In this document: one piece after another, positions 788-47,514 of the stretch
Layout: each line of letters starts with the position of its first letter
Position numbering within the stretch: position 1 is the first letter of the stretch
From: Leucoraja erinacea
Taxonomy: Eukaryota
NCBI RefSeq assembly: GCF_028641065.1
Contig: NC_073408.1
Coordinates: 3,596,001 to 3,660,000 of the forward strand
Length of the DNA: 64,000 bases
Direction of reading: 5' to 3'
Made by a program: the position numbers and the translations under genes
Notes under the pieces: model-generated
What the model saw: the letters and a program-made list of their open reading frames with translations, nothing else
What the model was told of the DNA's origin: nothing
The model's database searches: none

Positions 788-982
788 ATGTTTAAGAAGG
801 AACTGCAGAAGCTGGAAAAATCGAAGGTAGACAAAAATGCTGGAGAAACTCAGCGGGTGAGGCAGCATCTATGGAGCGAAGGAATAGGTGACGTTTCTTG
901 TCGAGACCCGAAACGTCACCTATTCCTTCGCTCCATAGATGCTGCCTCACCCGCTGAGTTTCTCCAGCATTTTTGTCTGCAT
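788..982. mobile_element. Penelope-derived fold-back mini-element
   Basis: Perfect 69-bp inverted arms 829-897 / 910-978. TSD TGTA(C/T)ATTAAAAA at 775-787 and 983-995. Confidence 0.8.
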
Positions 983-3826: not shown

Positions 3827-4142
3827 GGGCGGTCACGGTGGCGCAGCGGTAGAGTTGCTGCCTTACAGCGAATGCAGCTCCGGAGACCCGGGTTCAATCC
3901 CGTCTACGGGTTCTGTTTGTACGGAGTTTTCACGTTCTTCCCGTGACCTGCGTGGGTTTTCTCCAAGATCTTCGGTTTCCTCCCACACTCCAAAGACGTA
4001 CAGGTTTGTAGGTTAATTGGATTGGCAAATGTAAAAAATGTCCCTAGTGGGTGTAAGATAGTGTTAATGTGTGCGGGGATCGCTGGTCAGCACGGGCCCG
4101 TTGGGCCGAAGGGCCTGTTTCCGCGCTGTATCTCTAAACTAC
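3827..4142 (+). mobile_element. HE1-like V-SINE, full length
   Basis: A box TGGCGCAGCGGT, B box GGTTCAATCC 3891-3900, V-domain, tail GGGCCGAAGGGCCTGTTTCC...CTCTAAACT. Confidence 0.9.
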
Positions 4143-5359
4143 AATTTTCACTGGGCTTCTGTTTGCTCTTGACAGAGATTCCTGGGTCTCGGTGCCCCTT
4201 CATTTGGAGCGGGAATGGGACAAAACCATTTCCAAATTGGTGAGTGAGGCAAGGATGTTCCCAGAACATCCGTTAAGAATTTCCTCTCATCTCCAGGCAA
4301 TTTCCAGCATTTTGTGTCTATCTCTGGAGCATCTTGTTCGGAGTGGGCAAGTTGGGCTGAAGGGCCTGTTTCCATGCTAACCCTTGCTTGGTTCTCCTCC
4401 CACATGTGCTACCTGAGCTGCTGGGTGTTTTCAATATATATTTATATGTATTTGCTATGAATGCCACAAGCTGATTTGAAAAACAGAAGTGGAAACGCAT
4501 GGTCAAGAGTGCGTGAAATGTTCAGGGCGAGTGCCAGAGATGAGTTGAGTTGAGAGATGAGTTCCTGAACCAACAGATGTCACATTGCATCCTACCTCCA
4601 TGTTGTACCACACACACACACACCAGTGATCATCATGCATGTTAAAAACAATGCCACAGACTGCGGGCAACTATAAATGACACGGAAACTGACTCAAAAC
4701 ACGAGCAGACAAGATGCATGATCGGCAGTGTGTAAAATGTAGCAGATATTCAGCTGGGTGGTAATGGGGGGGCTGAGGAGAACATTTGTTGGCTATTTCA
4801 TGCAAAGGCTATAGAGAAGGATTGGGTTGACTTGGCCAGTCAGAGCTACAATGTGTAGATGTTGGATTGGCCAAAGATCATAAGTGATAGGAGCAGAATT
4901 AGGCCATTCGGCCCATCGAGTCTACTCCACCATGGCTGATCTATCTCTCCCTCTCAACCCCATTCTCCTGCCTTCTCCCCCTAACCCCTGACACCCGTAC
5001 TAATCTAGACAGTGTCAATCTCCGCCTTAAAAACATCCATTGACTTGGCCTCCACTGTTTGGTTTATGGCACATGGATTATTTGGCACCGGATTGGATGG
5101 AAAGATTTCACAAGATCATAAGACATAAGTGCACAATTAGGCCATTCGGCCCATCCTCTGCTCTGCCATTCCATCATGACTGATCTATCTCTCCCTCTCA
5201 ACCCCATTCTCCTGCCCTCTCCCCATAACCTTTGATACCCTTACTAATCCAGAATCTATCAATCTCCGCTTTAAAAATGCCAATGCCTTGGTCTCCAAAG
5301 CCGTCTGTGACAATAAATTCCACAGATTCATCACCCTCTAGCTGAAGAAATCCTGCTCA

Positions 5360-6050
5360 GAAAAGCTGGTCTGCACTGTCGCCCTCTCACCCAGGTCTAC
5401 AAAGGACTGATAGAGAGCATCCTCACCACAGGCATCACGGTGTGATATGGAAACACCACACAGACAGAGAGGAAGGCTCTACAAAGAGTCATAAAGACTG
5501 CAGAGAGGATTATCAGAACGGAACTCCCCTCCATGGATACAATCTATACACAGCGCTGTCAAAAAAGAGCCGAGAGAATCATCAGAGACACACTACATCC
5601 AACTCACTCCCTGCTCAAACACAAAAGCTGCACATACAACCTCAGGCACAGACGAGCGGACGGCATCGTCACAATCAGAACACGCTTTTTTTAAGAGCTT
5701 TTTCCCTGCCACAGTGAGACTCTTGGCCAAAATGAACTGATGTCCTGACCTACCTCATAGCACATCATATTATATTATAGTATATTGTCTCCTGGGCCTG
5801 TGCAATTTACAATGCAATCGACACTTTTTATATCGGGTTTGTGTAATTTACAACGCTCTCACTTTCCCCTTTATACAGGGTTTTAGGCATTTTCTTTCTT
5901 TTTTAGTTCTAGAGAAGTATATGTTTTTATAGATTATGTGTCTTCTGTGTGTCTTTTTAACTTGACTTGACTCTCTGAACAACCGCACAAGAGTTCCTAT
6001 GTGTGTAAGCACAAATGGCAAATAAAGCTTTTGACCTTTTTGACCTTTGA
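5360..6050 (+). mobile_element. Rex1/Babar-like LINE 3' fragment inserted in a minus-strand CR1 (about 5120-6335)
   Basis: YKGLIESILTTGITV*YGN...LQRVIKTAERII, AATAAA and TTTGACC-type tail. CR1 sequence resumes on both sides. Confidence 0.7.
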
Positions 6051-6695
6051 CCTTCCTCATCTCTATTCTGAAGGTACGGTCTTTTATTCTGAGGCTGTTT
6101 CCTCTGGTCCTAGATTCTACCAGTAACGGCAACATCCTCTCCATGCCCAGTCTATCCAGACTTTTCATTATCCAGTCGGTTTCAATGACATCCCCCTTTC
6201 GTCTTTCTAAACTCCAGCGAGTACAGGCCCAGTGTAATCAAACGCTCCTCGTATATCAACTCCAATCATCAGCAGGATTATCCTTGTAAACCTTCTCAGG
6301 ACCCCCGCCACTGCCAGCACATCCATCCTCAGATAAATGGTAGAGAATGAAAGGCAAGACTGATGATTGGACTTCCACCTTGGCAGGTGTGGTCTTGTTT
6401 AGAATTGACTTCTGCAAGAAGCCGGTGACGAGTTTATCTCAATCAAAGCTCTTAATGTATGTCGGACAAAACTGACCGAGAATGACCATGAATGTTGTTA
6501 AGTGGTCGGAGACCAAATGGCCATCCTCCTGGTCGAAGATGAAGGCCCAGCAAGGCTGGAAGGTTGCTTCTGTACACGACTGGGTTTGCGTAGATCGCGT
6601 GAAATTTTAAAATGAGTTTTTGAGATGTTTGGACTTAAAGGAGGAAAGGGAGTAAAGTTCGGATGGAAAAAAACTAAAATCATTTTAATTAAAAG

Positions 6696-6982
6696 GTAAA
6701 TTGGAGGAGCAGCAGCACCTCATATTTCGCTTGGGCAGTTTACTCCCCAGCGGTATGGACATTGACTTCTCCAATTTCAGGTAGTCCCTGCTTTCTCCCT
6801 CCTTCCCCTCCCCTTCCCAGCTCTCCCACAGCCCACTGTCTCCGCCTCTTCCTTTCTTCTTCCCGCCCCCCCCCCCACCTCCACATCAGTCTGAAGACGG
6901 GTCTCGACCCGAAACGTCGCCTATTTCCTTCGCTCCATAGATGCTGCCTCACCCGCTGAGTTTCCCCAGCACTTTTGTCTAC
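6696..6982 (+). mobile_element. Penelope-like element 3' end with hammerhead-bearing pLTR
   Basis: Encodes KLEEQQHLIFRLGSLLPSGMDIDFSNFR* (PLE endonuclease C-terminus). 12-bp TSD TTTAATTAAAAG at 6684-6695 and 6983-6994. Confidence 0.85.
6889..6920 (+). ncRNA. Minimal type I hammerhead ribozyme motif
   Basis: GU-CUGAAGA-C-GGGU(CUCG)ACCC-GAAAC-GUC^GC. Confidence 0.65.
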
Positions 6983-7399
6983 TTTAATTAAAAGAAGAAT
7001 CGTTTTAAATTAGAACAAAAGAGAAGGTTTAGCGGGTTCAAGGAAGAGATATCATGTTTTCCTCAAATACAGACCTTCGGTTTCAGAACAAGCTAGATAA
7101 AACACTTCAGAAACGGGCAGGAAATCAGATTATTCTGTAAATTCTGCGTTATTCATCTTTTAACCCTGGCCAGGATGTATTCTTCTCGGGGAGTTGAGAG
7201 ACATATCTCCCCAAGATCTGATACCCACCAGTTCCTTCATTCTGACCCTTGAGTATATTAATTTTTTTTTAAAAAATTATTAAATCATTGAGAACATTAG
7301 CGACGCAGTGGTGCTGGTTTAAGACGGGCAATATACGTATAGAATGTGCATGATGGGGTGAGAAAGAAGCTACTTCTTCCAGCAAGGATGCCAGAATAA

Positions 7400-7729
7400 T
7401 AGCCCTGTCCCACTATGCGAGTTCATTCCAAGAGCTCTCCTGAGTTTAAAAAAAATCAAACTCGGGGTAAGCACGGAGAATGAACGTAGCGGGTACGTCG
7501 GAGCTCGGGGACGTCTCTTAGCGGCTCGTGACGCTAACGGCAGGTACTCGGGAAGACTCGCTAACGGCAGATCAGCACGGGAAGACTCGTGAAGATTTTT
7601 CAACATGATGAAAAATGTCCACGAGAGCCCCGAGTACCGACGAGCGTCCATTACCGTAAATCTCCGAGTTCGAATCAGGGCAAACTCGGGAGAACTCTTG
7701 GAATGAACTCGTACCGTGGGACAGGGGTT
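7400..7729. mobile_element. Non-autonomous PIF/Harbinger-like MITE
   Basis: TIRs ...CCCTGTCCCAC / GTGGGACAGGG..., flanked by TAA on both sides. Confidence 0.75.
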
Positions 7730-7841
7730 TAAAGGCGGTTACATCACAGATAGGTCTAGACCATTCAATGGTGATCAGCAAATAAATCTTCACATAAAGT
7801 GTAGCGGAGGTCTTCCCTGCTGAAATCAGTGTGAGTTGTTA

Positions 7842-8241
7842 AGGGGTTGTCCCACTTTACGAGTTTAATCCAAAACTTCTGCCGAGTTTAAAGGACCTAA
7901 ACAAAAAATTTAAGATTGGGGTAATCTACGAACTCCTACGATCTTCCACGAGAACCCACGACTACCCTCACAGTCTACTACCGTCTGCCCAACAACTAAC
8001 TACCAGTAAAAAGTTGCCATTTTTTTCATCCCGACTATTTTTTCACTCGTGGACATTTTTCATCGGGATGGAAAAAACGTCCCGACTTACCTGATGCCCC
8101 GAGTACCAACGGCTGGCGTAACGAGCCGCTACGATATATCTACCAACTCCTACGGGCTCGTTGCAAACATTCTGCGAGTTTGAATCAAGGGGAAAACTCG
8201 GGAGAATTTGTGAATTACCTCGTGAAAGTGGGACTGGCCCT
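7842..8241. mobile_element. Non-autonomous PIF/Harbinger-like MITE (related family, opposite orientation)
   Basis: TIRs AGGGGTTGTCCCAC / GTGGGACTGGCCCT with TTA TSD. A further partial copy lies at about 12299-12435. Confidence 0.75.
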
Positions 8242-8294
8242 TTAGACACTGGGGGTGGGGGGTGGGAAGGCGATGTAACACTGTGGGGTGTAAC

Positions 8295-8935
8295 AGTCTA
8301 CTTCCTCTACTTCCTGAGAAGATTACGGAGAGTCGGAGTCAAGAGTCAATTTTGACCCTGGAGGTCAAGGAAAACTCTCAGCTATACTTCTACAGGTGCA
8401 CAACATAAGTAGATTTTACATGCTCCATCACGGTTGCCATCGTGGCTTGGTTCTCAACTTCTCCCCCCCCCCCCGCCCTGGAGAGGAAAAGACTACAAAA
8501 AGTAGTAAACACTGCCCAGTCCATCATCGGCTCTGACCTTCCTTCCGTCGAGGGGACTTATCGCAGTCGCTGCCTCAAAAAGGCTGGCAGCATCATCAAG
8601 GACCCACACCATCCTGGCCACACACTCATCTCCCTGCTACCTTCAGGTAGAAGGTACAGGAGCCTGAAGACTGCAACAACCAGGTTCAGGAATAGCTACT
8701 TCCCCACAGCCACCCACCTGGCTCGGACAAAACTCTGATTATTAATAACCACTTTCTGTTATTTGCACTTTACCAGTTTATTTATTCATGTGTGTATATA
8801 TTTATATCATGGTATATGGACACATTTATCTGTTTTGTAGTAAATGCCTACTATTTTTTTTCTGTGTGCTTAAGCAAAGCAAGAATTTCATTGTCCTATA
8901 CAGGGACACATGACAATAAACTCACTTGACTTGAT
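8295..8935 (+). mobile_element. Rex1/Babar-like LINE 3' fragment
   Basis: LQKVVNTAQSIIG...IIKDPHHPGH...LLPSGRRYRS...RFRNSYFP followed by a TGACAATAAA tail. Confidence 0.8.
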
Positions 8936-9002
8936 ATTAAAGACATTAACTAAGGAAGGTGGGCAGAGTAAGACATACATATCATCTTTGGTTTAAGAAC
9001 AG

Positions 9003-13794: not shown

Positions 13795-14856
13795 TTAAAT
13801 ATTGGACCAGGATGTGGTATTGTCAAAGACAGAACTGCTCCTATTCCTTTCGCCGATTTTCTGATGAAGGAAGTTGTCCAAGGTTGCCTGACTGATGCAG
13901 CGCAGATCTCTGAAGAGTTTCAGGATGCTGTCTCTGAACTTCACCCCAATAAACACATAAAGAACTGGATTCAGGCAGCTGTGGATGAATCCAGTGCTCT
14001 TTGACACCTCAATGGTAAATGTGAGCTTTCTGTAGAAATCGCAGTCTGCTGTGATCACATGCAGATTGCACAGTGTCTTTATGAACTTAGCCACGTTGTA
14101 CGGGGCCCAACAAATGCAAAACATCACGGTGACTGTGAGCACAACTTTAATGGCTTTGTGCCTCCCAAAGGTCTGGGTCTTGTATAATGTTTTGATTACC
14201 ATTGCATAACAGTAGCACATCACTGCGAGTGGTAAGGCAAAGCCAATTCCGTGGTAGAGAAACTGTTCAAAAAGCAGCCAGTCCTGGGCCATAGCTGATG
14301 TGTAAATGCATTTGGTTTCGTTGTTGAAATCATTATCCGCAACTTGCAAGAATATTAAATTCGGAATCTGTAGCAGGGAACCTGTCACCCAAATAGCTGA
14401 ACAAACCAGGTGGGCATACTTGGCACTGTGCCTTTTATGGATCTGAACGGCATAGACAATTGCCAAGTAGCGGTCAATGCTGATGCACGCCAGCAGCAGG
14501 CTGTTGCAGAAGAAGTTGAGTTTGAGGATGGAGTGTAGAAGTTTGCAAAGGAAAACACCAAAGAACCACTTGGAAATACTCTCGAGGGCAAAGAACGGGA
14601 GAACCAAGACCAGGAGGAGGTCAGCCACCGCCAGATGAAGCAAGTAGCTGTCGGTCGGAGACCTTGAACCCTTGTAACGTAACAAAATCGCCAACACCAG
14701 ACTGTTTCCAATGGTCCCCAACAGGGAGACCAGGAAATAAACTATTGGCACGATAATCTTTCGGAAATAGTGTGGCGTTTCCTCAACTTCTGGACAGTAA
14801 GTGTCTGCAGGAAACGTAGTGGTCTCGTCATTGCCATAGGAGTAATTCCAGGAGTA
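13795..14856 (-). CDS. CXCR5: CXCR5-like chemokine receptor, coding exon 2 (353 codons + stop)
   Basis: 7TM class A GPCR with GNSLV, LAVADLL, DRYLAIV, CWAPY and CLNPVLY motifs. TM2 LVLPF lacks the TxP threonine, as in CXCR5. Minus-strand acceptor TCATTTCAG|TAC at 14857/14856, phase 0. Divergent from DDX6 as in human. Confidence 0.9.
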   Translation of the reverse strand, partial: YSWNYSYGNDETTTFPADTYCPEVEETPHYFRKIIVPIVYFLVSLLGTIGNSLVLAILLRYKGSRSPTDSYLLHLAVADLLLVLVLPFFALESISKWFFGVFLCKLLHSILKLNFFCNSLLLACISIDRYLAIVYAVQIHKRHSAKYAHLVCSAIWVTGSLLQIPNLIFLQVADNDFNNETKCIYTSAMAQDWLLFEQFLYHGIGFALPLAVMCYCYAMVIKTLYKTQTFGRHKAIKVVLTVTVMFCICWAPYNVAKFIKTLCNLHVITADCDFYRKLTFTIEVSKSTGFIHSCLNPVLYVFIGVKFRDSILKLFRDLRCISQATLDNFLHQKIGERNRSSSVFDNTTSWSNI

Positions 14857-15291
14857 CTGAAATGAGTAAAGACACAAATAGTGAACATCACAATGGTTCT
14901 GGAAATATTTATCTTACGGATCTGAATGTCAAATAAAACATCACATAAATAAACGCCTCTCTCCCTTTTTTCCCCCAATAAGATTATTTAAAGGAAAATT
15001 CTGATGAGGTTGTCAACCTGAAATGTTCTCCCTCCATAGGTGCTGCCTGATCTGTCAGATAGTTCCAAGTTATATGTGCTTATTCCAGGTCCCAGTTTAG
15101 ACCTGTTGCTCTATGAAGTCCTGTTCTGGGGAGAGAACAGAATAAATGGCTCTTATGAACCTTGCAGTTAGGATGGCGGAACTCAGCCACAATTCCAAAT
15201 ATAATAGTTGAATCCTGTTCAAACACGCAAATGCATGGAGGCTGGGTGTGAGTAAAGTCGTAAAGTCAAGACTCCCACAAACCAATATTTA

Positions 15292-15323
15292 GTCTGAAGA
15301 AGGGTTGCAACCCGAAACGTCAC
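15292..15323 (+). ncRNA. Minimal type I hammerhead ribozyme motif in a Penelope pLTR copy (15291-15385)
   Basis: GU-CUGAAGA-A-GGGU(UGCA)ACCC-GAAAC-GUC^AC. It lies antisense within the CXCR5 intron. Confidence 0.65.
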
Positions 15324-15439
15324 CTATTCATTTTCTCCAGAGATGCTGCCTGATATGCTGAGTTACTCCAGCACATTGTGTCTAGATTGGTGTACTCATC
15401 TGGATAGTAGTCTTCTCACCACCAAACATCATGCCTCAC

Positions 15440-18660: not shown

Positions 18661-19888
18661 TGTCAGCAGCAGGTCAAATCAGGAAACGTTTAGCATCCTG
18701 TACAACTTCAAATCTACATCCAGATACTTCACGACCAGCAGAGTTAATCTGATATCAGTAGTAGCGAAAACACTGGCATCTATTATTAACAAAATGGTAA
18801 CATGTAAATAAGAAAATAATTAAAATGTTGGGCTAAGTCATCGAAGATTTATGAAAGGAACTCCATGTTTCAGGTCGAGACCCTTCTTCAGACTGAGAGA
18901 CAGGGGAAAGGGAAGCCTGTAACAGTCTGAAGAAGGGTCTCGACCTGAAACATCACCCATTCCTTCTCTCCAGAGGCGCTGCCTGTCCCGCTGAGTTACT
19001 CCAGCATTTTGTGTCTCTCCATGTTTCAAAGTCTGTGAGAGATTTTTGAAATTGGAACTAGCAATATAGATATGGTGGGCTAGTTGATGTGGTCCATTTA
19101 AACCTTCAAAAGGACTTGATTATAGGTCACATAGGCAATAATTAAATAAAATTAGGTTGGTGTGGAAGTGAATTGGTTAATAGAGGAAACAGTAGGAATA
19201 AATGGTCACATTTGGTTGATGAGGCTGAGGTTATTGGGGTTTTGCATGGGGATGTATAGTGCTGGGCCACAATGATCTGTATGAGGGAATCTAGTACATT
19301 ATAATCAAAGATAGACACAAAAAGCTGGAGTAACTCAGCTGGTCAGACAGCATCTCTGGAGAAAAGAAATAGGTGATGTTTTGGGTCGAGACCCTTTTTC
19401 AGACTGACAGTCGGGGGGGGGGGGGGGGGGGGGAAGGAAAACGAGAGCTATAGACAGTGATAGAGAACAAATGGATGAAAGATATGCATAAAAGTAACGA
19501 TGACAAAGGGAAGGGGCCAATGTTAGTTGTGGGCTGTGTGAAAACGTGTTACAGCCAAATAACATTATAATCTCACAAGATTGATATAGGTTGATTCTTG
19601 CAAAGGCTGTTTTGTTGACATTTCTTGCCGTCACGTCCATTTGCACCCTCTGCATACTCCTTCCTTTGCAGTACTCTTCTTGCAGCTGCCTGGAGATGGA
19701 ATATTTTGCAGCACTGAGCTAGGTATGGTCACATGCCGGATCTGTTGGCCCGTCTGTGAAGAGCTTGCCAGGTGGAAATATACGCACTGTGCAAGATGAA
19801 CCATTCAGAAGTGAACATTTTACATTGCTGTTTCACTCTGAAACTTTCACTGGCAATGTTTCTCACTATCGGCAGTCCCTGGGTTATA

Positions 19889-20557
19889 GAGTGCCCTCCA
19901 TAATGTTTGGGACAAAGATCCATCATTTATTTATTTGCCTCTAACTCCACAATTCGGGATTTGTAGTAGAAAAAAATCACATGTGGTTAAAGTGCACATT
20001 GTCAGATTTTAATAAAGGCCATTTTTATACATTTTGGTTTCATCATGTAGAAATTACAGCTGTGTTTATACATAGTCACCCCCTCATTTCAGGGCACAGC
20101 AATGTCATGTAAATGAAAGTAGTCATGTTTAGTATTTTGTTGCATATCCTTTGCTTGCAATGACCGCTTGAACTCTGCGATTCATGGACATCACCAGTTG
20201 CTGGGTGTCTTCTCTGGTGATGCTCTGCCAGGCCTGTATCAGAATCAGAATCAGAATCATACTTTACTAGCCAAGTATGTTTTGCAACCTACAAGCAATT
20301 TGCAGCCATCTTTAGTTTATGCTTGTTTTGGGGGCTAGTCCCCTTCAGTTTTCTCTTCAGCATATAAAAGGCATTCTCAATTGCGTCCAGATCAGGTGAT
20401 TGACTTGGCCACTCATGAATTGACAAATTTTTAGCTTTGAAAAACTCCTTTGTTGCTTTACTGGCTGGCATTTGGGGATTTTCCTTTATTATAAGGAGAA
20501 TTCTTCTGTCATCAGCTGTGAAGGTCCTCCTTGGCCTGCCTGTCCCTTTGCGATTGG
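19889..20557 (-). mobile_element. Tc1-like DNA transposon remnant
   Basis: TA + (G)AGTGCCCTCCATAATGTTTGGGAC TIR. Minus-strand EWPSQSPDLDAIEN, the motif around the DD34E glutamate. Confidence 0.85.
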
Positions 20558-20559
20558 TA

Positions 20560-21645
20560 AAATGCTGGAAACTGTATAGGCTGGTGAGCTTACCATGTGT
20601 AGTTGGAAAGGTACTCGAGAGTATTCTGAGGGATAGGTTATACAGGCATTTGGAAGAGCAATGGTTGATTAGGGATAGTTAGCATGGTTTTGTATGTGGG
20701 AGGTCGTGTCTCACAAATCTGATGAGGGCAGGGCTGTAGATGTTGTGTACATGGACTTCAGTAAGGCATTCAACAAGGTTCCGCATGGTAGGCTGCTCTG
20801 GAAGGTTAGATCGCATGGGATCCAAGGAGAGATAGCTGAATGGATAGCACATTGGCTCCATGGAAGGAAGCAGAGGATGATGGTGGAAGGTTGCTTCTCG
20901 GACTGGAGGCCTATGACTAGTGGTGTGCTACAGGGTTCAGTGCTGGGCCCGTTATTGTTTGTCATCTACATCAATGATTTGGATGAGAACATACTGGGCA
21001 AGATTAGCAAGCTTGCTGATGATACAAAAGTGAGTGGTTTTGCAGATAGTGAAGATGGTTGTGAATGATTGCAGCAGGATCTGGATCGATTGGCCAGGTG
21101 GGCTGAGGAATGGTTGATGGAATTTAATACAGAGAAGTGTGAGGTGTTGCATTTTGGGACGTCTAACATGGGCAGGACCTACACAGTAACTCTACAACTC
21201 TCTTGGGAGTGTTGTAGAGCAGTGGGATCTAGGAGTACAGGTGCATGGTTCCTTGAAGGTTGAATCGCAGGTAGAAAGCATGGTCAAAAAGGCTTTTGGC
21301 CCATTGGCCTTCATCAGTCAGAGTATTGAGTATAGTAGTTGGGAGGTCATGTTGCAGTTATATAAGATGTTGGTGAGACTGCATTTAGAATACTGTGTTC
21401 AGTTCTGGGCATGTTATAGGAAAGATATTGTCAAGCTTGAAAGTGTTCAAAAAAGATTTACGAGGATGTTGCCAGGACTAGAGGGTGTGAGCTATAGGGA
21501 GAGGTTAAGCAGTAGGAACGTGTCTCAACCCGAAACTGCCTGTCCAGCTGAGTTACTCCAGCATTTTGTTTCTACCTCCGAGAGGTTGAGTAGGCTGGAT
21601 TTCTATCCCTTGGAGCACAGGAGGATGAGGGGTGATCTTATAGAC
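20560..21645 (+). mobile_element. CR1 LINE reverse transcriptase fragment
   Basis: VDVVYMDFSKAFNKVPH, QGSVLGPLLF, ADDTK, LEYCVQFW, with stops and frameshifts. Confidence 0.9.
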
Positions 21646-23594
21646 GACAAACATAAGAATGTGTGCTGTACAAAAACTGAAACTGTTGGACATATTCTGA
21701 AGATCAGGCATTATTGTTGGGAGAGAAAAAATTGTTATTTCAGAATGAAATGCATTATTTTACTTTTCAAGATCAGTGTGTGCATGGTAAACAATGATTT
21801 AGATTTAAATCTCCCATAATATTGTGAACAATGTGAGTGTGGTTAGCAGTATGAGCTCTGTGTACTCATTATGTTACTGTCTGTAGGAGAATTAATTTCT
21901 GGATCATCTGTTCAAAAATCTCTCTTTGTCACCCCCTTGTGGATTCACAATTAGTTATTTCATAGTTGACAGAAATTAGGTATCTTCTTTTATATTTCTT
22001 AAATATAAAAAGATAATAAACATAAAATGATTTCCTTTCTTTGAATTCTGCCTTACCGTACAATTCTTCCCCCTGTCAGGGGATGAGAAAATGAAATGGG
22101 GCTATTAAAGAGAAGCTTCCATTTTGCTGTGTTCTCATTAGCTAATCAGCTGAAACGTTAACAGCAACAGAGATTTAATTAAAAACACAACATAACCTAA
22201 GGAAAATAAACATTAATTTTCACGGAGTCACAAAGTATTCTAATAACAAACACCAGCACACATTTAAACACCGACAGGACTTAGTTGCACATCCAAGCAC
22301 ATACTAACATGCACATATGCCACTAGATAATAGCAACGCAGGAGGGATTAAGGAAGATAGACACAAAATGCTGGAGCAACTAAGTGGGACAGGCAGCATC
22401 TCTGGATAGAAGGAATGGGTGGCGTTTCGGGTCGCCTTTAGGAAGCATACATGATGACAGAAATTGAGGCTCTGCTCAGGAAAAAGAGGAGGCATGGGAC
22501 AAGCATAGGAAGCTGGGATCAAACGTAGCCCGGCCTGAGTTTTGGGAACTGAGGAGCAGATTTAGGAGGGAAATCAAAAGGGCAAAAAAGGGGACAGGAG
22601 ATAGCTCTGGCAGGTGATGTTTGGAGGCTGAGATGAGGTTGGCAGATCCTGAACTCTGGCATTGACTGAGAAGGTCAGAGATCTCTGAAGAGCAGCTCAG
22701 GTAGTTATTTGTGTAATATTCTGCTCAATGTTGCAGAATCTTCATTCTTCTGTGATAATGCAGGATTTTCTGCATTATCACACATTAAGGGGGGGCCTTA
22801 GTAATCCTGTAAATTCCATCTTCTGCAGTAGTTGCCTTTGGTTGTCACAATTAATCACTTGTTTTCATTTCCCTCCAACTTACCCGCTTTAGACTAAACA
22901 GGATTCCTGGAATCTTAACTTTCTCGCTCCAGATTTGAAACTGTCATTCACTGTATTCATTTAGTTTTAAAATATGGACAATTAAGAATAAGCTAACATT
23001 TATTGTTCAAACATTGTTGACCCGAAGGCATTAAAAATCAACATCACAAACTGCAGTTATATATAGACTGTAGAGGTTTCTCTTTAATCATTCTGGAAAA
23101 GTTGACAGAAAGACCAGATGGAGATTTTTTTTCTTCCAATTATTAATTGATTCTTATCCTCAGTAAGACTATGGCAGACACAGCTAGAGCTGAGTAATCA
23201 CCGGTGTTCCTCTTTAATTGATTTCACCACTGAAATGATCTTTGGATAATTTGAAACAATACATGAATGTCTCTTGTCCATTTCCCTGCAGTGATTTGCA
23301 TAATGACACAGTTGAGTTCTATCTTGACTAGTCCCAGAGCCTACAGCCACACACAAACGAGTTTCTCATTTCACCTGATGTCTTGAGTGCACCGAAGAAG
23401 AACTACACAGAGATCAGATTAAAAAATGGAACTTTCAACTAATTAGCCGGCAAGGAAAGTAACAAGAGTCTGTGCTTTAATCTCGGTTTCTAATGCTGAT
23501 TAGTTAAGGATGAGACAGAGTACTGATGCCAAACACACAAACTGTGTGGATTGGAGTGCTCACTCATTATTAGAACCCCTCAAATGATTTACTC

Positions 23595-34529: not shown

Positions 34530-34726
34530 AGAAAGAACTACAGATGCTGGAAAAACCAAAGGTAGACAAAAAGGCTGGAGAAACTCACCGGGTGAGGCAG
34601 CATCTACGGAGAGAAGGAATAGGCGCTGTTTCGGGTTGAGACCCTTCAGAAGGAATAAGCGATGTTTTGGCTTCTCTCCATATATGCTACCTCACCTGCT
34701 CAGTTTCTCCAGCATTTTTATCTACC
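34530..34726. mobile_element. Penelope-derived fold-back mini-element in DDX6 intron 1
   Basis: Imperfect inverted arms. TSD TTTCTA(G/T)TTGCTAA at 34516-34529 and 34727-34740. Confidence 0.75.
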
Positions 34727-36440: not shown

Positions 36441-36720
36441 GTGGAAGTGAAAACATTCAATACCTTTTTTTGAAAAAGGACTTATGCGGAAGAATATTGT
36501 CTACGAAGCATCAGTGCAAGTGACTGCTTGACTTTTTAAAAAGACTCATACGAGTGCTTGCTTTGATTGCAACGGGAGGACTCGTATATATTGAGCAAAC
36601 TTTATTATCTCTTCATTTGAAGAGGTTTAAACTATTACAGTTTCTGTATGAACATTGGGCTGTAAACTGAACTTGCATATACATATATATTTTATATATA
36701 TATATAAATATATATATAAA
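36441..36720 (+). other. DDX6: DDX6 exon 2, 5'UTR portion
   Basis: Acceptor TTGCTTACAG|G at 36440/36441, continuous with the start codon at 36721. Confidence 0.65.
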
Positions 36721-36929
36721 ATGACCACAGCCAGGACGGAAATTCCCGTTATTATGGGTTTGTCTACTCAGAACGGGCAGTTGAGAGGCCCACTGAAATC
36801 CAGTACAGTCCCAGGAGGTGTGCCACCACAGCAAGTCGCACAGACCAATCAACAGCTACAGCAACTAAAAAATGCCAGCACACTTAATGGCACTCAGCAG
36901 CAAGCACATACAACCAGCAGTACTATCAA
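36721..36929 (+). CDS. DDX6: DDX6 coding exon 1 ([24 protein letters not shown]...)
   Basis: Matches the DDX6 N-terminus. Donor AA|GTAAGT, phase 2. Confidence 0.95.
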
Positions 36930-37179
36930 GTAAGTATCTTTTAAAATCTTTGAATGTAGCTTTATTCTGATTGTGAATGTTTGTCACATTTTTTTGTTGG
37001 ATTATTTTCTTAATGTATTTAATTTTCCTTCTGTTTTACTGTGTATTAGTATGTAAATTGCCAAAGGATTTTGGTATTTAGTTGGAATGTTGAATGTCTT
37101 TTTGGAAATGTCATTGCTGTTGTAATATACCAAAACAAGATTGTCAATTTGCGACAGGAAGATCCCACAGATGTAATTG

Positions 37180-38190
37180 AAATAATGCTCATCTCGCAGT
37201 CATAAGATTTGTACAGCCTAGAATTGGGCTCCTTGGCCCAACTCATCCATGCGACCAGATTTTATAGCAAAGCTAGGTCCATTGCCTTCAATTGGTCCAT
37301 ATTTCCCATCTATTTACCTGTCAAAATGTATTTTAAACATTGCCATTGTATCCACCACCACATATTTCTCTTGCAGCTTGTTCCATATATGCATCACCCT
37401 CTGTGGTGAAATTGCTTTGCGGGTCACAAATTTTTCCCTCTTGCCTTGAACCTATGGCCTCTATTTCTGGACTCCTACCCTGGAAAAAGACAGTGGCCTA
37501 ATCATGATTTCATAGATCTCTATGAGGTCACCCCTCAGCATCTATGCCCCAGTAGGAGCAAGTCCCTGTCCCTCCAGCCTCTCATTGTAACTCAAGTCCT
37601 TGAGTCCTGGTAAAACCTGGTGATTTTTTTTTCTGCATCCTCTGTAGCTTAATGGTCTTCAGCAGAGTGACCAGAACTACACGGATTACTCCAATGTGGT
37701 CTCACCAATTTTTTTGTACAGTTATAGCATGATGCCCCAACACCTGTACTTGATGCATTTGCTGATGAAGGCAAAGATGCCAAATGCTTTTTTCACTATC
37801 CCGTCCACCTGTGCTACCACTTTCAGGAAACTGTGGACCTGTAACCTAAGGTCCCCGTGTTCTACACCACCCCGGTCTTGTCAGAGTTCAGCTCCATCTG
37901 CCATTCCTTGGCCCACATCCCTTGATGATCCAGATTCTTTTGTAAACTTAGATAGCTTTCTTTGCTGTCATTCAACGATTAATCTTGCTGTAATCTGCAA
38001 ATTTATTCAGCACATTAACTGCACTGCTATGTAAATCATTAATATAGATGACAAACCACATAAATTCCTGTTGGCCATCTCTGGTCACAGATGTCCAATC
38101 AGTAAAATAACCCTCCGCTACCACCCTCTGACTCCTTCCACCAAGCCAATTTGAAACCTGGTGCCTTTCTCACCCTGGATCCTCTGTGAT
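37180..38190 (-). mobile_element. Decayed CR1 LINE in a DDX6 intron
   Basis: Reverse-complement CR1 RT C-terminus and 3' tail. Confidence 0.7.
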
Positions 38191-39226
38191 CTTGGTTTAG
38201 TGTTGGTGGTTAATGGATAATTAGTGGCAATGGTGTCAACATAATTGATTCTATTCGCTCTTCTTGGGTAATATTAACCTGTTCAACATCTTTTAATAAT
38301 TAGTTATGGCTATCATTTTTCCTTTCCTATTTTGTCACCTTTAAATGGTGATCATTTCTTATGTGATAATTCCTTAAGTTTTTTGCTCATTGTCATGCCA
38401 ACAATCTTAACATTGCAGTTACTTAATTATCCTACTTAATATCTGACTGCCTTTTCCCTGTTCTGTAATCTTTTCCAAATACCATCTGGTGCTTTTATCT
38501 AAGAACATTTTGGAAATAGTTTTATGTAACCACAGATAAAAAACAAAACCGTAATTTGAAATTATTGACTATGGCAAGGTTGTAGGAGAGTTCTGTTTCC
38601 CAAAGTTATCTCAATATTTTTGAAGTTTTTAGGTGACTTTAAATTAGGTAACTCCCAGCGTAAAATTATTTTTCCTGTCAAGACTTTGGCTAAATGTTTT
38701 TATTTAATTGCATTAATATATTTCTGACATTTGAGCTGTGAATTATGTGAAGCACTGTTATCGGTATTCTCTGATTTCCTTCATTTGCCATAAGATTTTT
38801 TGAGGAAGAGTAGGGCGTAGAGAGCCAGCAGTTGTACCCTTCTGAAATTTCCAGAAATTAGAAACTACAAATGCGAGAAATGCATAGAATCTCAATTGTG
38901 CATTCTATAATTTGTTGTAAAAATATATATTCTGCTAAAAGCAGTAATAATTTTCCTTATTTACTTTATTTTGATACCCATTACTGTGAAAGGTAAAGGA
39001 TTGGGATTATGCATGTATATGGGTCCTGAGAACCATTTTTTTAAAATGTAAAAGCTCATGATTTTATCGGCTCCAACCTTCTCTTCAGCACTTTTCTTAG
39101 CTTTGTAATTATAGTGGTCACCCTGCAAAACTTTGAGCTGAACATCTTCCTTTTGTGCCTTAACAAAACTTTGGGGTTAACAAAAATGGGGCTTAATGTA
39201 AGCATTTTGTCTCTTATTATCTATAG

Positions 39227-39290
39227 ACCAGGTGATGACTGGAAGAAAAGTTTAAAGTTGCCTCCAAAAGACAGGCGGATGAAAACTTCG
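39227..39290 (+). CDS. DDX6: DDX6 coding exon 2 (PGDDWKKSLKLPPKDRRMKTS)
   Basis: AG/GT bounded, 64 nt, in frame. Confidence 0.95.
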
Positions 39291-39659
39291 GTAAGAAGCC
39301 TTGTAACATGCCTGCTATTTTTCTCTAATTTAGACTGTTCTAAATTGCCTGTTTGTTGCCTTTTTAAATTGTCACGAGTCAGGACATTGTGAGTAATATT
39401 TACTGATAATAATAGTTACTATTGTTAAGTCTCGTCTCCATAAGGTAGAGTGACAGATAACTAGTCATTATTAGTGCTTCTCTGACCTTGATTTGCACAA
39501 CTAATTTCTGTCAATTTAGGGCAGGCAATTGTATTGGTTCAGTTCTTAAACAAATTGTATTGGTTCGATCATTTATCCATGTGTCAGAATATGACATAAA
39601 ATTCCACAGCTAAAGTTTTAATGGGCTTTTCTAGTAACCAGTTTTGAGAAGATTTTGTA

Positions 39660-40455
39660 TTGCAGAAATAATCCTTGGAGTGTAGGAGGATTAGGGATAA
39701 TCTTGGAGGTTTGTACAGCCATGAGGGTAATAAATAGGGTGAATGGACAGCTTTTTGCCCAGAGTAGGGGAATCACGAACCATAGGTTTAAGGTGAGAGG
39801 AGAAAGATTTAATAGGAACCTTAGGGGCAACTTCTGCTTCTTGTGTATGGCTTGCTCAGCCTAAAGTTGAGGGACAACTTGTTCTATTTGATTGTGCACG
39901 CCGGGTTGATTGCATTCGTCGAAACAGGGCGGACCACGTGAAGGTTGCAATCTTCCACCCCAGGGGCAGCGTATTCACACAAAAGATGGTGGGTATATGG
40001 AACAAACTGCCAGAGGAAGTAGTTGAGATGGGTATTATCACAGCATATAATAATAATAATAATACATTTTATTTATGGGTGCCTTTCAAGAGTCTCAAGG
40101 ACATCTTACAAAAATGTAGCAGGTAGAGGAAAAACATGTAAGGGGAATTAAATAAATAGTAGAGACATGACTAGTACACAAAGTAAAGACAGAATTCAAT
40201 ACAAAACACAATATGAGGCAATTAATGCACAGATGAAAAGGGAGGGGGACGTGGGGCTAAGGATAGGCAGAGGTGAAGAGATGGGTCTTAAGGGGGACTG
40301 GAAGATGGTGAGGGACACGGAATTGCGGATCAGTTGGGGGAGGGAGTTCCAGAGCCTGGGAGCTGCCCTGGAAAAGGCTCTGTCCCCAAAATAAAATATA
40401 AAATACATTTGGACAGTTACATGGGCAAGAAAGGTCTGGAAGGATATGGGCCAAA
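39660..40455. mobile_element. Old CR1 (+) with nested short retroposon (about 39830-39961) and L2 tail (-, 40047-40389)
   Basis: AGGGGCA is duplicated at 39823-39829 and 39962-39968. L2 peptide GDRAFSRAAPRLWNSLP on minus. Confidence 0.75.
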
Positions 40456-40779
40456 CACCATTTATCCACTGAGTACTCCCACTGTAAATTTGGCTTTGTA
40501 GTGAGAAGTATTTAAAAATGACTTTTATTCTTGTGTGTCATGCATAAATTAATGATGTTTTAGAAAGTACCTCTATGATAACCATGGTCCTTGCAAGGAT
40601 TTCATTGTTTGATTTTCACATTTTCAAGATTTATTTTACTCCTGTCTTGCATATTAGCTTCCAATCTAATGCTATTAATCACAAGGTAGCCCAAATGATA
40701 ACATTCTATATTGTAACTACTGTAACATTGTATATTGACATGTGGCAAAATCAGCTTTGTTATTTCTTTTGATCTTTAG

Positions 40780-40884
40780 GATGTAACTGCCACAAAAGGA
40801 AATGAATTTGAAGATTATTGTTTGAAGCGCGAGTTGCTAATGGGCATTTTTGAAATGGGTTGGGAGAAACCATCTCCAATCCAG
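40780..40884 (+). CDS. DDX6: DDX6 coding exon 3 (Q motif GWEKPSPIQ)
   Basis: AG/GT bounded, 105 nt, in frame. Confidence 0.95.
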
Positions 40885-41236
40885 GTATGGTATATCCCCT
40901 TCATCTTGTATTTGCAGCCGTGCTACAGAGTTAATTCATCTCTCCAATCCCTTATTTGCCCTTATTTCTCTATTTTTTGCAAATTACTTGTTCTTGCACA
41001 TGCCTATCAACTCCTCTGATTCTTTTTTGCCGTTAACCTACACTGAAAAGTAGTTTGCACGGGCCAATTGGTCTACCAGCACATCTTTGGGCTGTAGGAG
41101 AAAAATTGCTTTGAGATTTGACCAAACCCACATCACAGGAGCTGTGGTGCCCAAAGGATGGTGAGATATTGTACAGATTGGCTACGGTGCATGAATTTTT
41201 TTATTTGATTTTATTATTCTCAACTCTGTTTCTCAG

Positions 41237-41366
41237 GAGGCAAGTATTCCAATTGCATTGTCTGGCAGAGATATATTGGCCAGAGCCAAAAACGGAACAG
41301 GTAAAAGTGGAGCCTACCTCATTCCATTACTTGAAAGGCTGGACCTGAAGAGAGACTACATTCAAG
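41237..41366 (+). CDS. DDX6: DDX6 coding exon 4 (motif I AKNGTGKS)
   Basis: AG/GT bounded, 130 nt, in frame. Confidence 0.95.
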
Positions 41367-42126
41367 GTTTGTGTGATTTCTGTTCACATCTTCAATGTTC
41401 CCCCAATGTCACCCCTTTCAGTAATTCCAATTAATTTAGATGGTAAAGGGCAGGCAGGAAAACCACTTAGGGCAATATTCAGTTATGAGTGCTGATCAAG
41501 TAGAGGTTTCTGGGATTTGTAGTCGGAATGCAAACTGTCACACCATGGGTTGCTCATCTGGATAAGAAAAGGAGAAACTGGTCAGGAGGCAGGACAAAGC
41601 ATGGCAGTTAATAAAGGGATACAGGTGGGGGGGGGTGTGGCAGTTGATAGACAGATGGATGTCAGAGATGAAAAGACTGAGACAATTGAATTGAATTGTG
41701 AAGCTAGAGGAAGGAATGTAGGTGGAAAGTGAGGATAGGGAGAAATGAGTGCAAGTCAAGGTGGGGCATGGGGAGAAGGGTTTGAGGAGGTGTATGTTCA
41801 GGAAAACAGAATTGTTCTTATGCTTGTCAAAATTATTTCTGGGTGGTAGGTTGCCTCTTTTATGGCAGATTGAACATGCCTGTTTGATGTTTTAAACAAA
41901 GCAACCTGAATTTTGCCAGCTCCAACATAGAAAGATTCATGCTCCAAGAACTAATATAGAATGTTGCTTGACATTGCAAGCAACATAAAATCCTCTGGAA
42001 GGCAGCTGTGAAGTGAAGTCCCCATTGTTGGATAAACTTGACTGCTTTTGCAAATATTTGAAATGTTGTTGTTAATTATTGAACATTTTCATTTGATTTA
42101 TCAATTAATATCAGCTATGCTGATGA

Positions 42127-42336
<210 letters not shown>

Positions 42337-42802
42337 TAAACTAAGATTGTCTGGTGTTTTAAAATCGTCTTCGGACTGAAAAAGGGTCTCGAGCCAAAAC
42401 GTCACCTATTTCTTTTCTCCAGAGGTGCTGCCTGACCCGCTGAGTTACTCCAGCATTTTGTCTATCTTTGTTGTAAACAGTATCTTGTTTTTGTTATATC
42501 TTTAGACAAGTATTTGTTAATTCCTTTTTTTTTTTTACATGTTGGGTAATGGCAATTTAATGCTGAAAGAACATTGAAATATTAAAACGAGCAGCTGGAG
42601 ATGGCCATTTAACATTGTCTGTATATCTAATTGTTTATATTCTGGCACATTAATATACCCGAAGGCATCTTAACTGCTTAGTTGAACAATCCACAAACCA
42701 GACTACCATTTGTGTTATTGTTACATTAAACAAGATTGCCAATCTAGTTAATCTAGTGTCCTTTGTCGTTAGTTGTGAATGTGTACTTGAAACTGCTGTT
42801 AA

Positions 42803-42925
<123 letters not shown>

Positions 42926-44002
42926 TAATTAAAAATGCAATGTTCTTCCTATAACATTCTAAAAGAGATTAATTTGAAATTTAGAATAACTCTTTTGGGT
43001 GCAGTTGTATATTGTAGTAGTTTTATTCATCTAGAAGTCTTGATGCACTCTGAAATTATCTTCACAGAGAGTGCTTATGTTAGTTGACAAGTAGATAATC
43101 CTCTGTCGAGCATTTATGGAGATAAACAGTTGGGTTTTATTCATTGACCGGTAACAGCAAGCCCACTAATTTCACCTTTACCACCCTATCCACAGGATGC
43201 TGCCATTTACTCTTGCATTTGACTTTAAAAAATGCAATGCCTCTTCTCTAAATTAAATTTTATTTTAATAGTTTTCCAACTAATCTTTTATCTTCTGGCA
43301 TCCTTTGACAAACATTCTTGCTGTCTGCAACTTGACTAATTTTCATGTCATCTGCTGCATATCTGAATAAAAATAGAAAATACTTGCAATATAAAATACA
43401 GACCTGAAATATTTTTTCCATAGGTGTTATCGGACATGAATGTTTCCAGCATTTATGTTTACATTATAATTGAATTTTATTACTGGGTGATTTCAGATCC
43501 CAGTACAATAGTAATGAATTTACATTTGGTTTGATTAAATCTAGTATTGGTAAAGGTGGCCATCAAACTACTGAATTATTGTAAAGCAAACTGTAAAAGC
43601 TTGTGTTTATGTAGGTTTGCTTCAACCATCCCAATAGTTCAAGTTTGATAGTTCTTTTAACTGTAATAATTAACGGTATGATAACAGCATTGAGGAGCTT
43701 TGGGGATGTATTTTCTTTTCCATGCATACCGCATCTACTTTATCTCAATTACTTTATTCAAAATATTTTTGTGGAAAGTCTTGCTTTGTACATTAATAAA
43801 TTGATACTGTATGTTTCTAATATTTCATTAGCGAGCCTCTTCCATAATGTGACCAATTATTGAAAAGTCAGCAAGCCTGAAGAGTTGTCCCTTTATTAAT
43901 ATTTTGTCCTATTCATTTTTTGACCTCTAAATACCTGATTTAGCAATTCTGTTCTGCAATCGCAAAGTTGTAACACTGAATCTTCCTGGATTATTTATTT
44001 AG

Positions 44003-44152
<150 letters not shown>

Positions 44153-44744
44153 TAATAAAACTCGCCTCTTCAGTTTAAAACTTGTTTCTGCCATCCTATG
44201 TAAGTCTTAATTTTTGCTATTTCAAGGTAATCTCAGTCAGTATACCATTGCCATCTGCTTACCATTTTTTTTAAGCTGGGAAGAAAATTGAAGATAGTGT
44301 GGAGCTTGTTTTCTGCAAGTTATAATTGGCACCATTCTTGACATTTTGCCAAGAAGCATCATGAGAAGAAATGTAAAATAGTTCTTCATTATACAATTGC
44401 ATAATATAATGCTGATGAAGAACTTGCACGTTATTTGTAGAACTCTTACCTATAATAATAATAATAGAGCCTGGTGTCTGTCTTGTCGTTGAAGGATGAT
44501 GTGGAGGACATCCTTTGGGTTAGTCCATTTTGTTCCAGTATGCAAATACCCGAGTAAAGCTGACGTGAGAACATTTTAGATCTGATGCAAGCAACCGAAA
44601 GAATGGCCTTCAGTGATTTATTATTGAATCTCTATTTTGAGTTAACATTTCATTTAGAGTCCTATTTTGGGCTGCTTTATTACATAATTTAAACTGATTT
44701 TAAGCAGATAATCTGAAGTACAATGCACTGACTTGTCTTGGCAG

Positions 44745-44873
44745 AATTCGCATTTACAGAAACCGTACGAAATTAATCTGATGGAAGAGCTAACATTGAA
44801 AGGAGTAACCCAGTACTATGCGTATGTTACTGAACGGCAGAAAGTGCACTGTCTCAACACACTCTTTTCTCGG
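44745..44873 (+). CDS. DDX6: DDX6 coding exon 8 ([16 protein letters not shown]...)
   Basis: AG/GT bounded, 129 nt. Confidence 0.95.
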
Positions 44874-45670: not shown

Positions 45671-45787
45671 CTTCAGATTAACCAGTCAATTATATTCTGC
45701 AACTCTTCCCAGCGCGTAGAGCTGCTGGCCAAGAAAATCTCTCAGCTGGGTTATTCCTGTTTCTACATTCATGCTAAAATGAGGCAG
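45671..45787 (+). CDS. DDX6: DDX6 coding exon 9 (motif IV IIFCNS)
   Basis: AG/GT bounded, 117 nt. Confidence 0.95.
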
Positions 45788-46318: not shown

Positions 46319-46590
46319 TCTGAAGAAAGGTTTCCCGCCTATTTCCTTCGCGCCATAAATGCTGCTGCACCCGCTGAGTTTCTCCAGCATTTTTGTCTAC
46401 CGTAGAATTTGAATAGGGATTCCTTTATATAGAGAACAGACACAGAAAGCTGCAGTAACTCAGCGGGACAGGCAGCATCTCTGGAGAGAAGGAATGACAT
46501 ATCTCCAGAGATGCTACCTGTCCCGCTGAGTTACTCCAGCTTTTTGTGTCTATCTTCGGTTTAAACCAGAATCTACAGTTCCTTCCTACA
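46319..46590. mobile_element. Two adjacent Penelope-derived mini-elements (46319-46403 and fold-back 46436-46590)
   Basis: TSDs AGAATT(T/G)AATAG-type 13-mer at 46306-46318 and 46404-46416, and perfect CCTTTATATAGAGA at 46422-46435 and 46591-46604. Confidence 0.8.
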
Positions 46591-46785
46591 CCTTTATATA
46601 GAGACTTGATTAAAAACTTTGTGATTCTTGCACTTTAAATGATCTTCACACTGATAATGTTAGGAATACTTTGTACTATAAAATAACCAAATTTCTACTT
46701 TAATATGTTTTTAAATATACTGTTTTATAATTTATTTAGAATGAACTCCCATTTGTTAAGTTGAGTTGTCAATTCTTTTCAACAG

Positions 46786-46849
46786 GAACATCGTAACCGT
46801 GTGTTCCACGATTTTAGAAATGGAATGTGTCGCAATTTGGTTTGCACTG
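46786..46849 (+). CDS. DDX6: DDX6 coding exon 10 ([13 protein letters not shown]...LVCT)
   Basis: AG/GT bounded, 64 nt. Confidence 0.95.

Positions 46850-47319: not shown

Positions 47320-47514
<195 letters not shown>

What the first reader, a model, noticed from the sequence alone, without database searches (positions are those of the whole stretch)
6684..6994. Abundant Penelope-derived mini-retroelements carrying a minimal hammerhead ribozyme
Seen: the unit CTGAAGA-N-GGGT(loop)ACCC-GAAAC-GTC recurs, intact or decayed, more than 15 times on both strands (e.g. 276, 2187, 3383, 6891, 9470, 15294, 18870, 18927, 19380, 42376, 45091, 54858). Here it directly follows the stop codon of a Penelope endonuclease remnant. 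Five copies of only about 85-290 bp have their own 12-14 bp AT-rich TSDs (775/983, 6684/6983, 34516/34727, 46306/46404, 46422/46591). Established: Penelope-like pLTRs carry minimal type I hammerheads with a palindromic, loop-less stem III (here ACGT) that can cleave as dimers. Inference: in this lineage ribozyme-bearing pLTRs insert as short, retrozyme-like units at very high copy number, either as a true non-autonomous family or as extreme 5' truncations.
Basis: partly seen in the sequence, partly recalled or inferred. Interest (0 to 1): 0.7.

Follow-up and report, generated by a model that had tools for sequence, protein, structure and literature searches.

The report
Penelope retrotransposon stubs with minimal hammerhead
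This repeat is the end piece of a known kind of jumping gene (Penelope-like), present in an estimated 0.65-0.9 million mostly decayed copies and carrying that gene's known tiny motif predicted to cut its own RNA; most short copies start right at the motif's front edge, which likely marks where the element's RNA begins rather than a separate ribozyme-driven element.

Summary
The observation largely holds. 6696-6982 is a 287-bp, TSD-flanked 3' end of a Neptune-type Penelope-like element (PLE): 28 endonuclease codons, stop, a 106-nt spacer, then a minimal type I hammerhead. All five TSDs are real, but only 2 of 14 scored window cores are fully intact. PLE hammerheads, tails and inverted ends are published. 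The short copies do not behave like retrozymes: no tandem excess, no separate lineage, no 5' ends at the cleavage site (4 of 152), no spliced junction and only 1 exact back-splice-like junction genome-wide. Nor are they random truncations: 87 of 152 young arms start within -9..+12 nt of the hammerhead core, 6-30 times the per-base rate on either side. Head-to-head insertions carry the tail at exactly one end (31 of 32), and both arms share one sub-variant. Best reading (inferred): uncut RNA beginning at the hammerhead's 5' edge is copied from two internal start sites, one per nicked DNA strand, and copying runs off the RNA end. Cleavage and the transcription start are untested. This scan has reported the same picture many times on other DNA.

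The parts
6684..6695 (+). Left target-site duplication (12 bp, AT-rich)
   Evidence: Exact repeat at 6983-6994
6696..6784 (+). Last 28 codons and stop codon (6782-6784) of the GIY-YIG endonuclease of a Neptune-type PLE
   Evidence: same 3' end as the 746-aa RT+EN frame in L081
6785..6890 (+). Pyrimidine-rich spacer (3' UTR); ends in an initiator-like TCAGTCT at 6886-6892 that also resembles a 3' splice acceptor
   Evidence: Sequence; initiator consensus recalled; no spliced copy genome-wide
6891..6918 (+). Minimal type I hammerhead: core 6891-6897, extra base 6898, stem II 6899-6910, GAAA 6911-6914, loop-less ACGT stem III, predicted cut after 6918
   Evidence: architecture as in PMC4209133
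6919..6982 (+). Rest of the pLTR, ending at the inner (tail-less) reverse-transcription start site
   Evidence: Bimodal 3' ends
6983..6994 (+). Right target-site duplication
788..982 (.). Head-to-head doublet joined in stem II; tail on the left arm only; 13-bp TSD
15291..15385 (+). Short copy starting at the hammerhead edge, intact core; no TSD seen
18867..19016 (.). Two decayed cores back to back (18891 minus, 18927 plus)
34530..34726 (.). Head-to-head doublet, tail on one arm, 14-bp TSD
46319..46403 (+). 85-bp short copy starting 3 nt before the core, GAAAC half deleted, 13-bp TSD
46436..46590 (.). Head-to-head doublet without hammerhead, tail on the right arm only, exact 14-bp TSD

Best explanation
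These are target-site-duplicated insertions of the end repeat of Neptune-type Penelope-like retrotransposons, and most short ones are likely run-off cDNA copies of the first 90-135 nt of the element's uncut RNA. Shown by sequence: in the element the hammerhead, the rest of the pLTR and the ~37-nt tail are followed by the element body and the ORF start; copies end at either of two 3' positions and mostly start at the hammerhead's 5' edge. Inferred: the RNA starts at about -2 to -6 from the core (an initiator-like TCAGTCT); the protein nicks both strands of AT-rich DNA about 12-16 nt apart and primes one strand at the tail-end site and the other at the inner site of the same RNA. When the 5' copy of these sites is used, synthesis runs off the RNA end after 90-135 nt; the two cDNAs are joined head to head through short palindromes in the hammerhead (doublets), or one is lost (simple stubs). 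When the 3' read-through copy is used, synthesis continues into the 3' UTR and endonuclease and truncates at dispersed points, as in the copy at 6696-6982. The hammerhead is predicted to be inactive as a monomer and to need a dimer or the element's protein; its cleavage product is not the main template.
For: Parent element: 746-aa RT + CX4CX2C linker + GIY-YIG frame followed by the same 3' end (Atlas neighbours at 0.97 carry HTH_animal, RVT_1, GIY-YIG). Tail continues into the body and a conserved ORF start in 452 genomic matches. 5' ends of 3'-anchored young copies: 58 of 98 (family D) and 29 of 54 (family A) in -9..+12; rate 0.039-0.041 per nt against 0.001-0.006 on either side; at the cut site (+26..+30) 1 of 98 and 3 of 54. 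Of 29 body-continuing copies, 11 start in -7..+2, 17 further inside and only 1 upstream. Tail at exactly one end in 31 of 32 classified doublets; arms share the sub-variant (0.56 vs 1.91 mismatches in 11 nt, 27 pairs, no permutation of 5000 as low). In vitro precedent: a lizard PLE nicks and extends both strands, starts at two internal sites that bracket the tail, prefers AT-rich DNA and uses uncut RNA (PMC11167929).
Against: No direct start-site evidence: RNA reads showed no place where many molecules begin or end, although fragmented libraries could not be expected to. The cluster is 20 nt wide, and part of it (+10) is set by an inverted repeat in family D. The contrast between body-continuing and ordinary copies is borderline (11 of 12 vs 58 of 94 at risk, Fisher p=0.053). 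The G excess just 5' of the start (40 of the first 100 matches vs about 26 expected, p=0.002) is modest and can also come from the first bases of the second arm. In D. virilis the start site lies about 120 nt upstream of the hammerhead, before an intron (PMC2377424, PMC4209133). Shared sub-variants in the arms fit fold-back synthesis or gene conversion as well as double priming.
Confidence: 0.62

Rival explanations
1. The RNA extends upstream of the hammerhead, and ends cluster there because RT stalls or is resolved at this spot (hammerhead fold, the CAG(A/T)CTG and stem II near-palindromes, or the poly-C tract), with doublets made by fold-back.
For: Doublet junctions sit on palindromes: 13 of 36 inverted family D arms end at +6..+12, and several pairs fuse on CAG(A/T)CTG. 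About 38% of family D arms that reach +12 pass through (36 of 94). Self-priming at palindromes has been proposed for PLEs (PMC3846280).
Against: Most simple stubs end 5' of stem II, after the structure has been copied, and few end inside the C-rich tract (4 of 62 non-inverted D copies in -100..-17). Body-continuing copies almost never extend upstream (1 of 29). Fold-back does not predict that the second arm ends at the other known start site in 31 of 32 cases.
Confidence: 0.22
2. The stubs are a self-propagating non-autonomous, retrozyme- or SINE-like family that is transcribed and mobilised on its own.
For: Discrete ends, own TSDs (19 of 34 family D stubs with score >=10), both RT start sites inside the unit, very high number, and abundant reads. 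Animal retrozymes are proposed to derive from pLTRs (bioRxiv 10.64898/2026.07.22.740005).
Against: Nearest-neighbour label test on 127 family D arms p=0.28; 9 of the 10 commonest sub-variants occur in both short and long copies (the tenth in two long copies only); same-strand pairs within 500 nt 30 vs about 28 by chance among 228; the 6 tandem arrays found are 33-46-bp fragments or single dimers, not repeated whole units. Loose read ends show stubs embedded in host transcripts.
Confidence: 0.08
3. Ribozyme cleavage, circularisation or splicing at the acceptor-like site defines the template.
For: A textbook pyrimidine tract and CAG lie right before the core, and a donor-like site lies at the stop codon; in D. 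virilis the intron ends at helix I.
Against: Spliced junction 0 vs 5,477 unspliced genome-wide. Back-splice-like junction 4 matches with up to one mismatch, 1 exact, and that one has no further element sequence upstream. 4 of 152 ends at the cut site. Gaps between TSD and start are mostly 0-13 nt. The larger young family often has GTT instead of GTC at the cut (42 of 61).
Confidence: 0.06

Closest known systems
Minimal type I hammerheads in pLTRs of metazoan PLEs (Cervera and De la Pena 2014, PMC4209133; read parts 1-2 of 4)
   Same: Core, extra base before stem II, G10.1-C11.1 pair, palindromic 15.2-16.2, thousands of mostly single motifs tied to truncated PLEs in vertebrates
   Different: Stem II here is only 4 bp and the proximal stem I 2 bp; number far higher (24,467 exact cores vs about 4,000-9,000 in coelacanth and Xenopus, by different search methods)
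EN+ PLEs of the Neptune/Nematis type: partial tandems, inverted 5'-truncated copy, 30-40-bp tail often at one end only (Craig et al. 2021, PMC8557442; Arkhipova et al. 2013, PMC3846280; passages read)
   Same: RT-linker-GIY-YIG order, CX2-5CxxC linker, pLTR, tail, inverted ends, TSDs, heavy 5' truncation
   Different: The passages read do not describe clustering of 5' ends at the hammerhead edge or a near-strict one-tail rule; TSDs here are 10-18 bp against 8-10 bp in the rotifer examples
Anolis Poseidon element PAc in vitro (Frangieh et al. 2024, PMC11167929; read parts 1-2 of 4)
   Same: Two internal RT start sites bracketing the tail, both strands nicked and extended, AT-rich targets, uncut RNA as template, hammerhead at the front of the unit
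   Different: Other clade; there the ORF starts inside the hammerhead, here the conserved ORF start lies about 25 nt after the tail; no run-off class was described in the text read
Non-LTR retrozymes of animals (Cervera and de la Pena 2020, PMC7229834, passages; bioRxiv 10.64898/2026.07.22.740005, parts 1-3 of 5)
   Same: Small, non-coding, type I hammerhead, pLTR-related
   Different: Retrozymes are tandem repeats of 150-450-bp units with a hammerhead per unit, expressed as circles; these copies are dispersed monomers or inverted doublets

Membership tests
EN+ Penelope-like element | Single ORF with RT and C-terminal GIY-YIG endonuclease | tested here: met
   746-aa frame in L081; Pfam only weak (RVT_1 E=0.033, GIY-YIG E=0.044); Atlas neighbours at 0.96-0.97
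EN+ Penelope-like element | pLTR formed by partial tandem, with 30-40-bp tail | tested here: met
   L344 partial tandem; bimodal 3' ends; tail-body junction 452 matches
EN+ Penelope-like element | Inverted 5'-truncated copies and TSDs | tested here: met
Neptune/Nematis type | CX2-5CxxC Zn-finger-like linker between RT and EN | tested here: met
   Motif seen in L081, L025 and L145 translations; definition from PMC8557442
Neptune clade | Placement in an RT phylogeny | not tested
   No reference RTs were at hand; Neptune rather than Nematis rests on host type
Minimal type I hammerhead | Conserved core, stem II, extra base at 9.1, palindromic loop-less stem III | tested here: met
   Met at 6891 and 15294; 40 of 150 sampled copies
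Minimal type I hammerhead | Active fold predicted or supported by covariation | tested here: inconclusive
   Minimum-energy folds of three window stretches did not give the full hammerhead fold (one gave stem II only); stem II shows only a one-sided T-A/T-G change (107 vs 28 of 150)
Minimal type I hammerhead | Self-cleavage as dimer or with protein | not testable with these tools
   Needs an in vitro assay
Non-LTR retrozyme | Tandem repeats with a hammerhead in each unit | tested here: not met
   30 same-strand neighbours vs about 28 by chance; 6 arrays in 860 kb, fragments or single dimers
Non-LTR retrozyme / non-autonomous family | Own lineage separate from the autonomous element | tested here: not met
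   Family D only, 127 arms, p=0.28
Non-LTR retrozyme | Unit-length linear and circular RNA | tested here: inconclusive
   No start or end pile-ups and only scattered joints in 4 RNA runs; oligo-dT and single-cell libraries lose small circles

The most novel reading that the evidence does not exclude
PLE integration in this lineage is an ordered two-strand event: one RNA, capped at the hammerhead's 5' edge, is primed twice, at the tail-end site on one nicked strand and at the inner site on the other, and the hundreds of thousands of stubs and doublets are a genome-scale record of 'strong-stop'-like run-off products. This would explain the tail, the inverted pLTR and the regeneration of pLTRs by one mechanism, with the hammerhead as the whole leader of the RNA.
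Probability: 0.4. Interest if true: 0.6.

Novelty: new member of a known kind. Interest (0 to 1): 0.35.

Why it matters
The ribozyme and the element type are known. The value lies in mechanism: how PLEs integrate and why they show tails and inverted ends is still open (PMC8557442, PMC11167929). Here the end-point statistics give exact, testable predictions (RNA start at -2..-6, one start site per DNA strand, uncut template). The repeat end alone covers about 3.4% of randomly sampled DNA, so it also matters for repeat annotation; it should be filed as PLE, not as a SINE, retrozyme or miRNA hairpin.

Tried and rejected
Rfam scan: no hammerhead family, only sub-threshold hits. Pfam on the 31-aa remnant: nothing. 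PDB search with the ORF: 2 weak, unrelated hits. Intron hypothesis (donor at the stop codon, acceptor before the core): 0 spliced copies and no such joint among the listed read joints, of which 42 rows were not shown. Back-splice circle: rejected. Cap signature: modest G excess at -4, and 39 G of the first 100 at -3 would be confounded by inverted arms, so not decisive. Folding: no support for or against the active fold. Run search listed no indexed holder on record as RNA; the four raw-read RNA runs came by species label. Single-cell reads lie about 4-6 to 1 on one strand over the hammerhead, but the strand convention could not be fixed, so it is not used. An apparent first ATG 49 nt after the core closes early in most copies and was dropped in favour of the ATG after the tail. 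No intact full-length element with both pLTRs was retrieved. Lunse et al. on dimer cleavage was not held; only its title and a review's account of it were seen.

Full report
Setting. The window is G000:C32:3596001-3660000 of a 2.19-Gb genome. It holds a rhodopsin-family receptor gene and DEAD-box helicase exons; the look of the repeats suggests a cartilaginous fish (recalled, not tested). Positions below are given relative to C3, the first base of the hammerhead core (window 6891).

1. Observation. The motif is at all 12 places listed. A profile of the repeat end gives 28 hits in the window, 419 in an 860-kb sample and 0 in the reversed sample. From 210 hits in 60 evenly spaced 10-kb stretches of six large contigs the genome holds about 0.77 million arms (bootstrap 0.65-0.89 million; an extrapolation, and doublets count twice), covering 3.4% of the DNA. 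The exact core pattern has 24,467 matches with 0 in the control. The five TSDs are present. Corrections: the stop codon is 106 nt upstream of the core; only 2 of 14 scored window cores and 40 of 150 sampled cores are fully intact; three of the five TSD-flanked copies are head-to-head doublets and a fourth has lost half the motif.

2. What the named copy is. 6696-6982 aligns end to end with the 3' end of L081, which carries a 746-aa frame with RT, a CX4CX2C linker and a GIY-YIG domain, and is up to 95% identical to longer copies (26 compared). Pfam scores are weak, but Atlas neighbours at 0.96-0.97 carry RT, HTH_animal and GIY-YIG families. The linker marks the Neptune/Nematis type (PMC8557442 passages). 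The RT-thumb query gave 19,107 candidates, of which 150 were scored, so long truncated copies are common too. The copy starts at -195 and ends at +91 without the tail: an ordinary truncated 3' end.

3. Anatomy of the unit. In L344 a truncated copy (endonuclease end, stop, spacer, tail) runs straight into the element body. The tail-body junction has 452 matches, and a conserved reading frame starts about 25 nt after it (4 copies translated). So hammerhead, pLTR and tail are the front of the unit, repeated at its end. 3' ends are bimodal, near +90 and +128, which matches the two internal RT start sites that bracket the tail in the lizard element PAc (PMC11167929).

4. 5' ends. I anchored on 31-mers 3' of the hammerhead: 54,369 matches for the larger young family D and 17,265 for the finding's family A. 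Of 132 D and 64 A arms collected, I kept the 98 and 54 lying in stretches fetched for these anchors or at evenly spaced or neighbouring places; most come from the first megabases of C1. Ends in -9..+12: 58 of 98 and 29 of 54, a rate of 0.039-0.041 per nt, against 0.0012 and 0.0064 in +13..+48 and 0.002-0.005 upstream. At the cut site (+26..+30): 1 of 98 and 3 of 54. TSDs scoring >=10: 57 of 98 (median 14 bp, 62% AT) and 19 of 54 (12 bp, 69% AT). In 112 copies with unique upstream sequence the match to the element fades from 79% at -1 to background at -6. Of 29 body-continuing copies, which must come from the front of the RNA, 11 start in -7..+2, 17 further inside and 1 upstream (29 of 30 loci could be placed); the contrast with ordinary copies is borderline (p=0.053). 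In oligo-dT reads family D depth falls about 100-fold just upstream of the core, but loose ends show host flanks, so this reflects stubs inside host transcripts and is no start-site evidence.

5. Doublets. 64 of 228 hammerhead-covering hits have a head-to-head partner within 300 nt. Among TSD-bounded doublets, 31 of 32 have the tail at exactly one end, and the last has a partial tail; 13 candidates whose left end could not be classified and those over 520 bp were dropped. The arms share the sub-variant (27 pairs). [quoted passage not shown]

6. Tests of the retrozyme reading. No tandem excess, no stub-only lineage in family D, and only fragment arrays; no spliced copies against 5,477 unspliced; 1 exact back-splice-like junction. 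Published retrozymes are tandem units with a hammerhead each.

7. The ribozyme. The motif has the published features of PLE minimal hammerheads, which were inactive as monomers and weak as dimers (PMC4209133); the PAc ribozyme cut only with protein and was dispensable for insertion in vitro. Family D often has GTT at the cut (42 of 61, against 15 GTC). Folding gave no support for the active fold. Activity is untested.

8. Mechanism. Shown: element identity, unit order, two 3' ends, clustered 5' ends, one-tail rule, absence of ends at the cut. Inferred: RNA start at the hammerhead's edge (initiator-like TCAGTCT, consensus recalled; PLE pLTRs have internal promoters), double priming and run-off. 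The main rival is stalling or resolution at the hammerhead.

9. Novelty. Four paper searches aimed at this and three on PLEs in cartilaginous fish returned, among the listings and the texts I opened, no description of the 5' pile-up; most subscription papers, figures and repeat databases were not visible. Earlier notes of this scan reach the same reading in this genome (119 notes fit the look-up, 8 shown) and in others; I had formed the reading before opening them, and they are not independent support. Verdict: a new, very abundant member of a known kind, with a useful mechanistic signature. Interest 0.35.

Noticed in passing
window 13795-14913 (-): Intact 372-aa rhodopsin-family receptor frame (Pfam 7tm_1); resembles CXCR5 (name recalled).
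   Followed up: partly
window 36652-47850 (+): Exons of a DEAD-box helicase resembling DDX6 (name recalled; motifs located). Sense-oriented repeat copies at 42376, 45091 and 46319 lie between its exons; all three have broken cores.
   Followed up: partly
window 20289-20678 (-) and 20679-21819 (+): Decayed DDE transposase fragment (DDE_3) next to a LINE-type RT fragment (RVT_1); many similar LINE fragments elsewhere in the window.
   Followed up: no
L371-L400: Many body-continuing copies are small two-pLTR units: hammerhead-tail-50 to 400 nt of body, then a jump to a second pLTR, often about 60-80 nt after the tail. They place two hammerheads in direct orientation and are the natural substrates for a dimer-cleavage test.
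   Followed up: partly
L031 4301-4570; L032 1205-1295 and 4374-4651: Tandem arrays of 33-34-bp units made from the 3' half of the family D hammerhead, lacking the CTGA core; read joints 'going back 33-34' match them.
   Followed up: partly
family D, e.g. L145 6413-6541: The larger young family carries a near-perfect 15-nt inverted repeat across stem II and GAAAC, which competes with the hammerhead fold and sets many doublet junctions at +10; its cut triplet is often GTT.
   Followed up: partly
run X15 on L145:6150-6580: Contigs of another organism label show the same heterogeneous flanks at the hammerhead edge, so the stubs are shared across related species.
   Followed up: no
L081 and L093; L020 and L023; L352 and L353: Near-identical locus pairs (93-99%), probably duplicated segments or unplaced haplotypes.
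   Followed up: no
window 49106-49303: Poly-G and poly-C runs about 90 bp apart give spurious miRNA-family hits.
   Followed up: no
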